Of a DNA stretch of 64,000 nt, positions 223 through 58,719 are shown one piece after another (position 1 is the first letter of the stretch; every line of letters starts with the position of its first letter). This DNA is from an uncultured Planctomycetota bacterium. GTDB lineage: Bacteria; Planctomycetota; Planctomycetia; Gemmatales; Gemmataceae. A program made the translations under genes and the position numbers. The notes under the pieces were generated by a model, which saw only the letters and a list, made by a program, of their open reading frames with translations, searched no databases and was not told the origin of the DNA. The stretch is from NCBI GenBank assembly GCA_963848825.1, contig CAWKFA010000015.1, forward strand, positions 1,837,608-1,901,607. The letters run 5' to 3'.

Positions 223-375
223 CCCGTAGGGTGGCGTCGAGCGTACTCGCGCTGACCCACCGAAATACCCGATCGCGCTGAATTAATTCCCGAAACGCCG
301 TTCCTCGGATCGCGAACACGATTGTGTGCCGATTCCGGTGGGTCAGCGCGAGTACGCTCGACGCCACCCTACGGG
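223..375. repeat. MITE-like palindromic element copy 1: perfect 37-bp terminal inverted repeats (226-262 / 336-372) flanking a 73-bp core
   Basis: gtagggtggcgtcgagcgtactcgcgctgacccaccg ... cggtgggtcagcgcgagtacgctcgacgccaccctac read directly; the same TIR recurs at 38394-38526, 58683-58719 and degenerate at 15745-15780. Confidence 0.75.
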
Positions 376-448
376 AATAGGAAAAGCAAACGGGGACAAG
401 ACTTGGGTCTTGTCCCCGTTTGTTTTTAGACAAAGGCTGGTTTACGCA

Positions 449-15744: not shown

Positions 15745-15780
15745 GTAGGGTGTGTCAAGCGTACTAGTGCTGACGCACCA
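15745..15780. repeat. degenerate solo copy (about 80%) of the MITE terminal inverted repeat, immediately followed by a 14-bp perfect hairpin (15785-15817)
   Basis: gtagggtgtgtcaagcgtactagtgctgacgcacca vs TIR gtagggtggcgtcgagcgtactcgcgctgacccaccg; hairpin tagcccccgcgatt-atcta-aatcgcgggggcta. Confidence 0.45.
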
Positions 15781-15981
15781 TCCATAGCCCCCGCGATTAT
15801 CTAAATCGCGGGGGCTACTATCGGTCGTCCCTAACTGGACTGAAAGACAAAAATCCGACCGGTTGGGTCTCGCCGCCTGCTGGTTTTATCCACCGGCCAA
15901 AATGGTTGTCGATTCTTTCCTAGGGCGTAAGACACTATCTGGGGACGTGTTGCTTTCGACCTGGGGTAGAAGGAACTTGTC

Positions 15982-24748: not shown

Positions 24749-24856
24749 CTAAGAGCGTTCGAAAAAAAAGGGGTCAGACCCCCTCAATACGCTGCAAAAG
24801 CGTTGAACTCTGGTCGCTTCAAGGGGTCTGACCCCTTTTTTTTCGAACGCTCTAAG
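24749..24856. repeat. 34-bp near-perfect inverted repeat (24749-24782 / 24823-24856, 40-nt spacer); each arm holds GGGGTCTGACCCC plus T8 terminator-like hairpins facing outward into the truB and lipid-kinase leaders
   Basis: ctaagagcgttcgaaaaaaaaggggtcagacccc ... ggggtctgaccccttttttttcgaacgctctaag; one mismatch between arms. Confidence 0.7.
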
Positions 24857-36363: not shown

Positions 36364-37386
36364 TCAAAACTGTTGCAAAAACCGTAAATCGTTCGCCCAA
36401 AACTGGCGAATGTCGTCGATGGCGTGTTTCAGCATGGTGATACGTTGCGGCCCCATGCCAAAGGCGAAGCCACTGAAACGATCCGGATCGTAGCCGCCGT
36501 TGCGGAGCACCACGGGATGGACCATGCCCGCGCCCATGATTTCAAGCCAGCCGGTCCCCTTGGTCAGCCGATCGGCGTTGGGGTCTTCCTTGGGCCAGTC
36601 GATATCAACTTCGATGGACGGCTCGGTAAACGGAAAATAGCTAGACCGCAAGCGCACTTGCCGTTCCTGCCCGAACAGTCGCCGGGCGAAAGCCGTGATG
36701 GTCCCCTTCAGGTCGGCCATGGTGATGCCGGTGCCGATCGCCAGGCCTTCCACCTGCTGAAACTGAATCTCGCTGCGGGTGGTGATGGCCTCATAGCGGT
36801 AGCACATGCCGGGCAGGATCACGCGAATCGGCTCGGGACAAAGCTCACGCATGATATGGATTTGTCCGGGCGACGTGTGCGTGCGCAGGATCACTCCGGG
36901 CGTCGTGGTGTGAAAAGTGTCCCACATGTCGCGTGCCGGGTGGTGCGGCGGCATGTTGAGGAGTTCGAAGTTGTTGAGATCGTCCTCGACCTCGCGACTG
37001 CGATAGATCTGGAAGCCAAGGTCGGCGAAGATGCCCTGGATTTCGCGCATGATGCGCGTGGCGACGTGTAGACGTCCCCGGGCAAGCGGCCGGCCAGGCA
37101 GGGTGACGTCGAGAGCGTCCGCTGCCAGGCTCCGCGCCAGGGCCAGCTCTTTATCCTTGGCAACGGCCGCGTCATATAACTCGGTCAGGGTCTGTTTAAC
37201 GCGATTTGCTTCTTGCCCGAAAGCTCGGCGGTCCGCCGGTGGCACGTCGACAATTTTCTTGAGGGCCGCGGAAACGGCGCCTTCCTTGCCGAAATACTTG
37301 GTGTTCCAGGCTCGCAAGGAAGGTTCACTATCACAGGCGGCCAACTCGGCGCAAGCGCGCTCTTCTAAATTGGCTAGGTCCGACAT
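36364..37386 (-). CDS. pheS: phenylalanine--tRNA ligase alpha subunit
   Basis: Class II aaRS motifs; start at MSDLANLEE; the ORF track extends to 37455. Confidence 0.9.
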   Translation of the reverse strand: MSDLANLEERACAELAACDSEPSLRAWNTKYFGKEGAVSAALKKIVDVPPADRRAFGQEANRVKQTLTELYDAAVAKDKELALARSLAADALDVTLPGRPLARGRLHVATRIMREIQGIFADLGFQIYRSREVEDDLNNFELLNMPPHHPARDMWDTFHTTTPGVILRTHTSPGQIHIMRELCPEPIRVILPGMCYRYEAITTRSEIQFQQVEGLAIGTGITMADLKGTITAFARRLFGQERQVRLRSSYFPFTEPSIEVDIDWPKEDPNADRLTKGTGWLEIMGAGMVHPVVLRNGGYDPDRFSGFAFGMGPQRITMLKHAIDDIRQFWANDLRFLQQF

Positions 37387-37503
37387 TTGTAGCGTGGGCT
37401 TTGGCCCCACGCACCCCTCGATACCGGCGCGGACGAAAGCCCGCGCACCACGCAAAACAGCGTCTCCTCGTCGCGCGAACTAAGGCCCGCGCGACGTCAG
37501 CCG

Positions 37504-38114: not shown

Positions 38115-38393
38115 TGGATCCAATCCCCTGCGGTAAGAACGGCACTTAATCGAGCCGGCGTCCCGCGGCTTGTCGTTAAAGAATACTTCTCCCGTCCAAG
38201 CACAGCGGTTCGTGCTCAAAAGGGAGAAGTGCATTGTAGGAAAATATTACTTGGGGGCTAGCATGGTAGACAGCCGTTTGCCTTCCAGGCGCGCCATCAT
38301 GACATATCCCCACGATAATCGTCAACACGGAAGTTGCCGGATATTTGCGGACAAAGCCCTCGGGATGACGTCAATCTGCCGCGCGGCTTCCGC

Positions 38394-38526
38394 CGGAGAC
38401 CTGTAGGGTGGCGTCGAGCGTACTCGCGCTGACCCACCGAAATCCACCGACGTCACGGCCCTCGCGTGTTCGCATCGACCCATCCCGCAATTCAATTAGC
38501 GGTGGGTCAGCGCGAGTACGCTCGAC
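38394..38526. repeat. MITE-like element copy 2 (perfect 37-bp TIRs; core about 80% identical to copy 1 but in reverse orientation), upstream of the rpmI-rplT-pheST operon
   Basis: Direct sequence comparison with 226-372. Confidence 0.75.
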
Positions 38527-38560
38527 GCCACCCTACATGGGAACGTATTTTATTTGGCGG

Positions 38561-50765: not shown

Positions 50766-50943
50766 TGCTTCTGTCCTCCAAATCTCATGATACTGGAAAA
50801 ATCCCTGCCATGTCGAGCGTAAACAAGGGCGTTGCCGCCCCTTCACGTGGCTGCGGGTTCCCTTCAAGACTGAGCCGTTTCGCGGCTGCCTTCAATCCAG
50901 TCTACGTCGTCGTACGGCTTGCCTCGAACGACGCTGCGGCGAA

Positions 50944-51296
50944 GGTGAAAGGGTGGTGGTCTTCGTCCCCTGCCGCCTCGTGCGGCAGGAACGAAAGGTC
51001 TGTAGCTAAGGTAAAGGGTGGTGGTCTTCGTCCCCTGCCGCCTTGTGCGGCAGGAACGAAAGGTCTGTAGCTAAGGTAAAAAAGTGGTGGTCCTCGTCCC
51101 CTGCCGCCTTGTGCGGCAGGAACGAAAGGTCTGTAGCTAAGGACCCTGGCGGCGACCACAAAAAGGATGCGCGAGATGGTGGTTTAGGTGCGGACCTTGC
51201 GTTCCTGCCACGCGAGGTGGTAGGGGACGGGGTGTGGGCGGCTTGATTTTGCTAGCTGTCGACCTTTCGTTCCTGCCACGCGAGGTGGCAGGGGAC
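50944..51296. repeat. cluster of 36-bp stem-loop repeats: three direct copies in a 66-67-bp tandem unit (50965-51000, 51030-51065, 51096-51131) and two inverted copies (51193-51228, 51261-51296); not CRISPR
   Basis: gtcccctgccgccttgtgcggcaggaacgaaaggtc; inverted copies carry compensatory stem changes (cctgccGc/gCggcagg -> cctgccAc/gTggcagg). Confidence 0.75.
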
Positions 51297-51394
51297 GGGA
51301 CACTAGTATCCTGCCACACAATCCGGACGCGATAAATCGTCGAACAAAGTCAGCAAGCCATCTTTTGCGTCAAACGTCGCAGCTCAATAGCTAT

Positions 51395-56399: not shown

Positions 56400-56801
56400 A
56401 CAGATTTCTCCAAAAAACTGGGGTTTTCTGTCCTTAGATAGGTAAGGTATCCGTTTGCTATTCCCGGAATATTAAAGCTGCGCCTGGGCAACGGCAACAA
56501 AAATCGCCTTTTTTTGTGTTTTTTTGTGCGATTTCCTTCAAAATGTGCCTACTTTCGCCACCTGTCCTCTAATACGCGCAGGCTCCGCATTGGCGGCGTT
56601 TTAAAGTGCGCCAGCGAAAAATCAGAAAAATCGTTAAAACCGGCCGCCTGCCGGAAAACTTGACCTATAGTTGCCGTGAAGCTCTTCGCGTGAAGAGCGA
56701 TCCTCGACAAGGGTAAACCCGTCGTAAGGCGGGGCGCAAAACCATGGGTCCGGTAGCCAGGCGCTGGCGATCGGATTGCCAGGTTGCCGAAAGGAAAAGT
56801 C

Positions 56802-58682: not shown

Positions 58683-58719
58683 CGGCGGGTCAGCGCGAGT
58701 ACGCTCGGCACCGCCCTAC
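58683..58719. repeat. solo copy (33/37) of the MITE terminal inverted repeat
   Basis: cggcgggtcagcgcgagtacgctcggcaccgccctac vs cggtgggtcagcgcgagtacgctcgacgccaccctac. Confidence 0.6.

What the first reader, a model, noticed from the sequence alone, without database searches (positions are those of the whole stretch)
223..375. MITE-like element with perfect 37-bp terminal inverted repeats, two full copies in opposite orientation
Copy 1 (226-372) lies between the convergent BON and groEL genes. Copy 2 (38394-38526) lies between the SDR gene end and the rpmI start, i.e. in the promoter/leader region of the rpmI-rplT-pheST operon. Both share identical 37-bp TIRs (gtagggtggcgtcgagcgtactcgcgctgacccaccg).

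The roughly 60-75-bp cores are about 80% identical but inverted relative to each other, as expected for a non-autonomous transposable element inserting in either orientation. There is no transposase in the window. Outer bases extend the palindrome (ccc...ggg at 223/375), which may be target-site related.
Basis: seen in the sequence. Interest (0 to 1): 0.6.

Follow-up and report, generated by a model that had tools for sequence, protein, structure and literature searches.

The report
GTAG-tagged REP doublets in a planctomycete
The two "MITE-like" elements are inverted pairs of a 37-base GTAG-headed palindrome (a REP, arranged as BIME/REPIN-type doublets) in a Gemmataceae genome, so this is a new sequence family of a well-known kind of bacterial repeat and not a classical transposon-derived MITE.

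Summary
The core observation holds. The 37-nt arm GTAGGGTGGCGTCGAGCGTACTCGCGCTGACCCACCG occurs four times without a mismatch, as two inverted pairs at 226-372 and 38403-38536. The claim that the cores are about 80% identical but inverted is not supported: they are about 50% identical in either orientation.

Each arm starts with GTAG, folds into its own bulged hairpin, shows compensatory stem changes, is extragenic, and has no target-site duplication.

The same 36-nt unit, usually in GTAG-outward pairs with 17-25-nt linkers, occurs in seven other Planctomycetes contigs. About 168 kb from the closest sampled relatives holds only one degenerate copy, and none at the orthologous groEL-BON site.

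This matches GTAG-tagged REPs arranged as BIME/REPIN-type doublets, a class already reported in Planctomycetes. The repeated unit is the REP, not the 134-147-bp element.

Mobilisation by a RAYT (TnpA-REP) is inferred only. No RAYT is in the window or in any fetched locus, and the source genome could not be reached.

Verdict: new member of a known kind, low to moderate interest.

The parts
226..262 (+). REP unit, left arm of doublet 1. It has a GTAG head followed by a bulged hairpin.
   Evidence: Exact match. It folds alone at -10.7 kcal/mol, z = -2.5.
263..335 (.). 73-nt linker of doublet 1, not homologous to the linker of doublet 2.
   Evidence: about 50% global identity in either orientation.
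336..372 (-). REP unit in inverted orientation (iREP), right arm of doublet 1. The GTAG heads of the two arms point outward (an 'HH dimer').
   Evidence: The whole doublet folds at -64.4 kcal/mol, z = -14.9.
38403..38439 (+). REP unit, left arm of doublet 2.
38440..38499 (.). 60-nt linker of doublet 2.
38500..38536 (-). REP unit (iREP), right arm of doublet 2. It shares its outer flank (CAT before GTAG) and inner flank (CTAAT) with the solo unit at 58683.
   Evidence: (family D2). The doublet folds at -57.3 kcal/mol, z = -12.2.
58683..58719 (-). Solo REP of the same 37-nt form with 4 substitutions. These include a compensatory T:A to C:G change in the stem.
15745..15779 (+). Solo, more diverged REP of the 36-nt form, which lacks the inserted C. 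Its stem is kept as GGTGTGTC/GACGCACC.
   Evidence: nhmmer E = 1.1e-5. Sequence. Pair counts.
15787..15818 (-). A different GTAG-headed perfect palindrome (12-bp stem) lying 7 nt from the solo REP, head outward. It is possibly a heterologous REP partner.
   Evidence: There is no other copy in the window or in the fetched loci.
387..422 (-). Context: the intrinsic terminator hairpin of groEL, with T-runs on both sides. Doublet 1 lies between the BON stop codon and this terminator.
   Evidence: Sequence.
38294..38549 (.). Context: a 256-nt lineage-specific segment that contains doublet 2. It replaces the SDR-infC spacer and most of infC that relatives carry at this position.
   Evidence: blastn against L009-L013. 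tblastn with IF3.

Best explanation
The element is a pair of GTAG-tagged repetitive extragenic palindromes (REPs) in inverted orientation with the GTAG heads pointing outward. This arrangement is a BIME/REPIN-type doublet, or 'HH dimer'. The host is a member of the Gemmataceae (Planctomycetes).

The repeated unit is the 36/37-nt REP plus a few flanking bases, not the whole 134-147-bp structure.

Shown here:
- The anatomy of the unit: a GTAG head, an 8-bp stem with a one-base bulge, and an invariant central AGCGTAC block.
- The units occur both as singletons and as doublets.
- All units are extragenic.
- There is no target-site duplication.
- The same unit is present in other Planctomycetes.
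- The unit is nearly absent from the closest sampled relatives.

Inferred from the established biology of REP/RAYT systems:
- The units are spread or maintained in trans by a single-copy REP-associated tyrosine transposase (RAYT, also called TnpA-REP). This HUH/Y1 enzyme recognises the folded single-stranded REP through its GTAG foot.
- Once in place, the very stable hairpins act passively as 3'-end RNA stabilisers or transcription barriers. Doublet 1 lies in the BON 3' UTR ahead of the shared terminator, and doublet 2 lies 25 nt after the SDR stop.
- They may also serve as recombination substrates.
For: - All four doublet arms are identical, with zero chance expectation.
- Each arm alone folds as GTAG + GGTGG(C)GTC...GACCCACC.
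- Over 9 distinct family members, 95.8% of stem cells pair, against 31-50% in the slid controls. Two pairs show changes on both sides (T:A to C:G, and G:C to T:G).
- GTAG is kept in 16 of 17 units.
- Solo units exist at 58683 and 15745.
- The linkers are unrelated while the arms are identical. Arm spacing in the family is 17-73 nt.
- Units fall into flank subtypes, CCY-GTAG...CCG-AAAT versus CAT-GTAG...CCG-CTAAT. This shows that a unit of about 45 nt is what gets copied.
- There are no direct repeats at the element ends.
- All 4 loci are intergenic.
- The same 36-nt REP is found in Gemmataceae, Planctomycetales and Planctomycetia MAGs and in metagenome contigs, mostly as GTAG-outward doublets.
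- 168 kb from relatives (PheS 86-89% identical, GroEL 95-96% identical) holds one degenerate unit. The orthologous groEL-BON spacers in L016 and L018 lack it.
- Literature definitions match. REPs are 20-50-nt palindromes preceded by GTAG, and BIMEs are a REP plus an inverted REP with a variable linker (PMC8266576). GTAG REPs, HH dimers 20-100 bp apart, and their presence in Planctomycetes (R. baltica, with many tyrosine transposases) are described in PMC3733652.
Against: - No RAYT/Y1 transposase gene was found in the window or in any fetched locus. This was tested by tblastn with E. coli RayT, an HMM of 115 RAYTs and an HuH...Y[IVL]xx[NE][PQ] motif scan. The REPtron link is therefore untested.
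- The copy number in the source genome is unknown. Only 6 units in 64 kb were seen.
- Other genomes show only 1-2 exact-core copies each. The exact-match search is biased against diverged copies.
- The doublet linkers are not conserved, which departs from the strict REPIN model of a doublet replicating as one unit.
- No clean empty site was obtained, so insertion as opposed to loss is not directly demonstrated.
Confidence: 0.75

Rival explanations
1. Classical MITE. On this reading the element is a deletion derivative of an insertion sequence. It would be mobilised as one 134-147-bp unit by a DDE-type transposase that binds the 37-bp terminal inverted repeats.
For: The element has perfect 37-bp inverted termini, a small size, no coding capacity and two copies in intergenic DNA.
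Against: - There is no target-site duplication at either copy.
- The internal cores are unrelated although the arms are 100% identical.
- Arms occur alone.
- Arm spacing varies from 17 to 73 nt across family members.
- Each arm is itself a GTAG-headed hairpin with compensatory changes.
- No IS with such ends is in the window or the fetched loci. The one DDE transposase seen, in L012, has no REP nearby.
Confidence: 0.07
2. Host-selected structural or regulatory palindrome with no current mobility. On this reading the hairpins are kept because they terminate transcription, stabilise upstream mRNA or bind a host protein, and any transposase that spread them is gone.
For: - Doublet 1 lies in the BON 3' UTR just before the terminator, and doublet 2 lies 25 nt after the SDR stop.
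- The hairpins are extremely stable.
- The 36-nt unit is identical in different MAGs.
- Di Nocera et al. note no strict correlation between REP families and transposase genes (PMC3733652).
Against: - The two solo units lie in divergent upstream regions, not at 3' ends.
- The element is absent from the orthologous sites of relatives, which use ordinary terminators or other palindromes.
- Four identical arms next to unrelated linkers point to recent copying or homogenisation, not to old conserved sites.
- This rival concerns the effect of the element and does not explain how it spread.
Confidence: 0.13
3. Specific operator or palindromic binding site of a local transcription factor.
For: The sequence has dyad symmetry.
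Against: - It is found at four functionally unrelated loci in 64 kb and next to unrelated genes in seven other contigs.
- The arms are 60-73 nt apart.
- There is no Rfam family. Only sub-threshold matches to generic miRNA hairpins were returned.
Confidence: 0.02

Closest known systems
E. coli REP/BIME elements and their RAYT (RayT/TnpA-REP, 'REPtron')
   Same: Both have a GTAG foot, a long unit (about 35-40 nt) whose stem is interrupted by a bulge, and REP plus inverted-REP pairs with variable linkers. Both are extragenic, often lie at 3' ends, make no target duplication, and include unit subtypes distinguished by small sequence differences (compare the Y and Z REPs).
   Different: The sequence is unrelated and the host phylum is different. 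The cognate RAYT was not found here, and the copy number is unknown.
REPINs of Pseudomonas fluorescens SBW25 (Bertels & Rainey 2011) with group-3 RAYTs
   Same: Both consist of two inverted REPs that form one long hairpin, alongside singletons interpreted as decayed or partial elements. Both show lineage-specific abundance.
   Different: SBW25 REPINs replicate as doublets with a recognisably conserved spacer. Here the two doublets share no spacer homology, and the REP unit is longer and bulged.
GTAG-tagged REP super-family, including GTAG-20/21 of Rhodopirellula baltica (Di Nocera et al. 2013, PMC3733652)
   Same: Both are GTAG-tagged stem-loops in a planctomycete. 'HH dimers' with the GTAG ends outside and 20-100 bp between partners are the commonest arrangement.
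   Different: The sequence differs. The peptides encoded by intragenic R. baltica REPs in that paper's supplement do not match any frame of this unit. The 15-nt structured central region is larger than most loops described there.
Bacterial TIR-type MITEs (for example the Neisseria Correia element, or ERIC/IRU)
   Same: Both are small, non-coding, intergenic, have inverted termini and fold as long hairpins in RNA.
   Different: TIR-type MITEs have a conserved core and a target-site duplication (TA for Correia), and they move as one unit. None of these features is seen here.

Membership tests
REP (GTAG-tagged repetitive extragenic palindrome) | A 20-50-nt unit able to form a stem-loop | tested here: met
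   The 36/37-nt unit folds at -10.7 kcal/mol, z = -2.5. 95.8% of stem cells pair, and 2 pairs have compensatory changes.
REP (GTAG-tagged repetitive extragenic palindrome) | A conserved GT[AG]G tetranucleotide at the 5' foot of the hairpin | tested here: met
   GTAG is present in all 6 window units and in 16 of 17 units overall. One degenerate unit has GTAA.
REP (GTAG-tagged repetitive extragenic palindrome) | Extragenic location | tested here: met
   All 4 window loci lie between genes identified with Pfam.
REP (GTAG-tagged repetitive extragenic palindrome) | High copy number dispersed over the genome | tested here: inconclusive
   There are 6 units at 4 loci in 64 kb. The source genome was not retrievable. 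Other genomes show 1-2 exact-core copies each.
REP (GTAG-tagged repetitive extragenic palindrome) | A cognate RAYT/TnpA-REP gene flanked by the same REPs (a REPtron) | not testable with these tools
   No RAYT is in the window or in 18 loci.
BIME / REPIN (inverted REP doublet) | Two REPs in inverted orientation close together that form one long hairpin | tested here: met
   Arms are 100% complementary over 37-38 nt, or 98% over 46 nt. Free energies are -64.4 and -57.3 kcal/mol, with z = -14.9 and -12.2.
BIME / REPIN (inverted REP doublet) | The doublet is the replicating unit, so the spacer is conserved among copies (strict REPIN definition) | tested here: not met
   The two window spacers are 73 and 60 nt and about 50% identical. 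In other MAGs the picture differs. L002 and L004 share one spacer, and L001 and L003 share spacer length and ends. The BIME definition of a variable linker fits better.
TIR-type MITE | Target-site duplication flanking the element | tested here: not met
   The flanks are TTCCC/GGGAA (inverted, not direct) for copy 1 and GACCT/ATGGG for copy 2.
TIR-type MITE | Copies are homologous over their whole length, including the core | tested here: not met
TIR-type MITE | A parent IS with the same terminal inverted repeats | not testable with these tools
   None is in the window or the fetched loci. There was no hit in plasmids or viral contigs. The whole source genome is unavailable.

The most novel reading that the evidence does not exclude
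A long-lived REP-RAYT partnership may exist in the Gemmataceae, outside the Gammaproteobacteria where such systems have been characterised. In it, a bulged 36/37-nt REP is kept identical to the base across different MAGs. It has expanded in this lineage as a one-base-insertion variant. Its doublets mark rearrangement junctions, such as the one that removed infC from its conserved place upstream of rpmI.
Probability: 0.25. Interest if true: 0.45.

Novelty: new member of a known kind. Interest (0 to 1): 0.25.

Why it matters
The finding re-files a "MITE" as a REP doublet and adds a previously undescribed REP sequence family from the Gemmataceae. REP/RAYT biology has not been studied experimentally in this group.

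It gives a concrete consensus to look for when annotating planctomycete genomes: GTAGGGTGG(C)GTCGAGCGTACTCGCGCTGACCCACC. It also gives a handle for finding the cognate RAYT.

Practically, such hairpins of -57 to -64 kcal/mol affect transcript 3' ends, assembly, PCR and synteny breakpoints. Conceptually, nothing here departs from the known REP/BIME paradigm.

Tried and rejected
- **Rfam.** No family matched at gathering thresholds. With permissive E-values, only generic long-hairpin matches to miRNA precursor models appeared, far below threshold. These were rejected as artefacts of a perfect hairpin.
- **Source genome.** The exact GroEL is not indexed. A 100%-identical cluster, P0241, sits on a 2.0-Mb contig but has no position or name on record.
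- **RAYT search.** I tried tblastn with E. coli RayT, an HMM of 115 enterobacterial RAYTs and a motif scan, over the window and the loci. All were negative. The database search with E. coli RayT returned only Enterobacteriaceae and so gave no planctomycete RAYT to follow.
- **Empty-site test.** The orthologous groEL-BON spacers in L016, L017 and L018 are non-homologous. They carry a different palindrome or a plain terminator. Absence of the element is shown, but the insertion boundaries are not. The SDR-rpmI locus is rearranged, so it gives no clean empty site either.
- **Other collections.** Plasmids and viral contigs gave no match.
- **Other REP families in the window.** A scan for other perfect GTAG-headed hairpins found 5, against about 6 expected by chance. 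There is no evidence of further abundant REP families in the window.
- **Operator hypothesis.** Rejected on the distribution of the element.

Full report
**Observation.** Reading the sequence and a mismatch-tolerant search show that GTAGGGTGGCGTCGAGCGTACTCGCGCTGACCCACCG occurs four times without a mismatch. The positions are 226-262(+), 336-372(-), 38403-38439(+) and 38500-38536(-), and none is expected by chance. Copy 1 is 226-372 (147 bp), and its palindrome extends to 221-377 with one mismatch. As single strands the two elements fold into near-perfect hairpins of -64.4 and -57.3 kcal/mol, with z = -14.9 and -12.2.

**The cores are not homologous.** The 73-nt and 60-nt spacers are about 50% identical in either orientation. 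The best local match is 12 of 13 bases, and about 1% of shuffles score as high.

**Missed members.** A repeat search and an nhmmer profile of the arms found two further units in the window.
- A solo 37-nt arm lies at 58683-58719(-) with four substitutions.
- A more diverged solo arm lies at 15745-15779(+). It lacks the C at position 10.
- The window therefore holds six units at four loci.

**Anatomy of the unit.**
- Each arm begins with GTAG and folds on its own: GGTGG(C)GTC pairs with GACCCACC around a 15-nt centre, at -10.7 kcal/mol and z = -2.5.
- In an alignment of 13 arms (9 distinct) from the window and other genomes, GTAG and a central AGCGTAC block are invariant or nearly so.
- 95.8% of stem cells pair, against 31-50% when the partner columns are slid.
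- Two stem pairs change on both sides: T:A to C:G in the 58683 unit, and G:C to T:G in the 15745 unit. Only 9 of 500 shuffles reach this.
- There are no direct repeats at the ends of either doublet.
- Units fall into flank subtypes. CCY-GTAG...CCG-AAAT/GAAT covers both arms of doublet 1 and the left arm of doublet 2. CAT-GTAG...CCG-CTAAT covers the right arm of doublet 2 and the solo unit at 58683.
- Identical arms combined with unrelated linkers and subtype-specific short flanks show that the copied unit is the REP-sized module of about 45 nt, not the 134-147-bp structure.

**Context.**
- Doublet 1 lies between the BON stop (206) and the terminator hairpin at 387-422 that ends groEL on the minus strand. 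It is therefore in the BON 3' UTR.
- Doublet 2 lies 25 nt after the stop of an SDR gene on the minus strand and 288 nt before rpmI on the minus strand. It is upstream of the only promoter-like site there.
- The solo units lie between divergent genes. One is between a Ser/Thr kinase and a phosphoglucomutase, and the other is between a GT87-like gene and an unknown ORF.
- Next to the 15745 unit, head outward, is an unrelated GTAG-headed perfect palindrome at 15787-15818.

**Related sequences.**
- An exact-core scan of 185,579 species genomes found four loci. All are Planctomycetes MAGs: Gemmataceae Baikal-G160 (twice), Planctomycetales SW_37 and Planctomycetia MAG-36.
- A metagenome scan found three more contigs.
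- All of these carry the 36-nt consensus GTAGGGTGGGTCGAGCGTACTCGCGCTGACCCACCG. The window's doublet arms and the 58683 solo unit are a variant with one extra base at position 10, whereas the 15745 solo has the 36-nt form.
- Most are GTAG-outward doublets with 17-25-nt linkers, and some have a truncated partner.
- These scans required exact cores, so copy numbers in those genomes are underestimates.
- Viral contigs and plasmids gave nothing.

**Source and relatives.**
- PheS and GroEL place the window in the Gemmataceae. The best PheS hit is about 90% identical, and named hits are Gemmataceae or Planctomycetes MAGs.
- A 100%-identical GroEL cluster sits on a 2.0-Mb contig that is not indexed.
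- Ten loci from the closest retrievable relatives, 168 kb in total, contain only one degenerate unit, at L011:18764.
- At the orthologous groEL-BON spacer, L016 and L017 carry a different palindrome and L018 carries a plain terminator.
- The REP doublet is therefore lineage-specific, but the spacers are too diverged to give a clean empty site.
- At the second locus, homology to relatives stops just past the SDR stop codon (about 38545-38552) and resumes at 38291, inside the last 14 codons of infC. The 256 nt in between contain doublet 2 and replace the SDR-infC spacer and about 500 nt of infC. No infC exists elsewhere in the window.

**Classification.** These features match the published definition of REPs: palindromes of 20-50 nt preceded by GTAG, organised in BIMEs made of a REP and an inverted REP with a variable linker (PMC8266576). 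They also match the GTAG-tagged super-family, in which 'HH dimers' with GTAG outside and 20-100 bp between partners are the commonest arrangement (PMC3733652). That paper reports the super-family in Planctomycetes (Rhodopirellula baltica) together with many tyrosine transposases. The R. baltica families (GTAG-20/21) differ in sequence from this one. The long, bulged unit resembles the type associated with group-2 RAYTs. The strict REPIN criterion of a spacer conserved between copies is not met in the window. Every defining feature of a TIR-type MITE other than inverted ends was either tested and not met or could not be tested.

**Mechanism.** The anatomy and the distribution are shown. What follows from the REP/RAYT literature is inferred, not shown. 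On that basis, a single-copy RAYT elsewhere in the genome recognises the folded single-stranded REP through the GTAG foot and spreads or homogenises the units. The resident hairpins would then act as RNA 3'-end protectors or transcription barriers and as recombination substrates. No RAYT was found in the window or in any fetched locus, by tblastn, by a RAYT HMM or by a motif scan. The database search seeded with E. coli RayT returned only enterobacterial proteins. The REPtron link therefore remains the decisive untested step.

**Verdict.** The core observation is real, with corrected coordinates, an unsupported claim about the cores, and two extra copies. The 'MITE' label should be replaced by 'GTAG-REP doublet (BIME/REPIN-type)'. 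This is a new sequence family of a known kind in an under-studied phylum, and interest is low to moderate.

Noticed in passing
window 38250-38291 (-) and 38294-38549: Only the last 14 codons of infC survive upstream of rpmI. Relatives have SDR-(variable)-infC-rpmI-rplT-pheS. Here a 256-nt novel segment containing the REP doublet replaces the rest of infC, and no IF3 gene is present anywhere in the 64-kb window. A promoter-like site (TTGACG-18-CATGAT, 38325-38296, minus strand) lies in the novel segment.
   Followed up: partly
window 56703-56792 (+): There is a c-di-GMP-I-GGC riboswitch aptamer (RF03167) at 62.3 bits, above the gathering score of 59.
   Followed up: no
window 50934-51299: A cluster of another repeat: three tandem 66-nt units (95% matches) followed by two inverted copies. 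Each contains the hairpin CTGCCGC-CTYGT-GCGGCAG, preceded by CGTCCC. It is intergenic, absent from all fetched loci, and has no Rfam match. It is possibly a second, CGTC-like REP/BIME cluster.
   Followed up: partly
window 24749-24856: A 39-nt inverted repeat (92% complementary) made of two facing terminator-like hairpins (AAAAAAAAGGGGTCAGACCCC...) with 30 nt between them.
   Followed up: no
window 15787-15818 (-): A GTAG-headed perfect 12-bp-stem palindrome (GTAGCCCCCGCGATT-TAGAT-AATCGCGGGGGC) lies 7 nt from the solo REP, in head-outward arrangement. It has only a single copy in all the sequence held.
   Followed up: partly
L002:1542-1726 and L004:3045-3200: In the Baikal Gemmataceae MAG, the REP doublet with the same 16-17-nt linker sits inside a larger inverted repeat (…AACTTCCCGATT / AATCGGGAAGTT…) at two loci. 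This suggests a nested composite repeat.
   Followed up: no
L003:1518-3891; L003:6624-6791; L001:5572-5668; L005:687-747: Other planctomycete contigs carry further palindromic doublet families. Several are GTAG-headed (GTAGGGTCCGCTGTGCGGACC, GGTAGGTCAGGCTTTCCAGCCTGAC, GGTAGGACGGGTTTCC…), and one occurs three times in 2.4 kb of L003. REP-like repeats appear to be common in this phylum.
   Followed up: no
L016:11630-11716 and the end of L017: The groEL-BON spacer of two relatives holds a different 27-nt-arm palindrome (TTTAGCCGCGACGCGAAGCGGAGCGCG…). A third relative (L018) has only a plain terminator. This spacer turns over quickly.
   Followed up: partly
window 36364-37455 (-): The mechanical pheS ORF (363 aa, TTG start) is longer than all homologues, which are 340 aa. 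The real start is probably 23 codons downstream.
   Followed up: no
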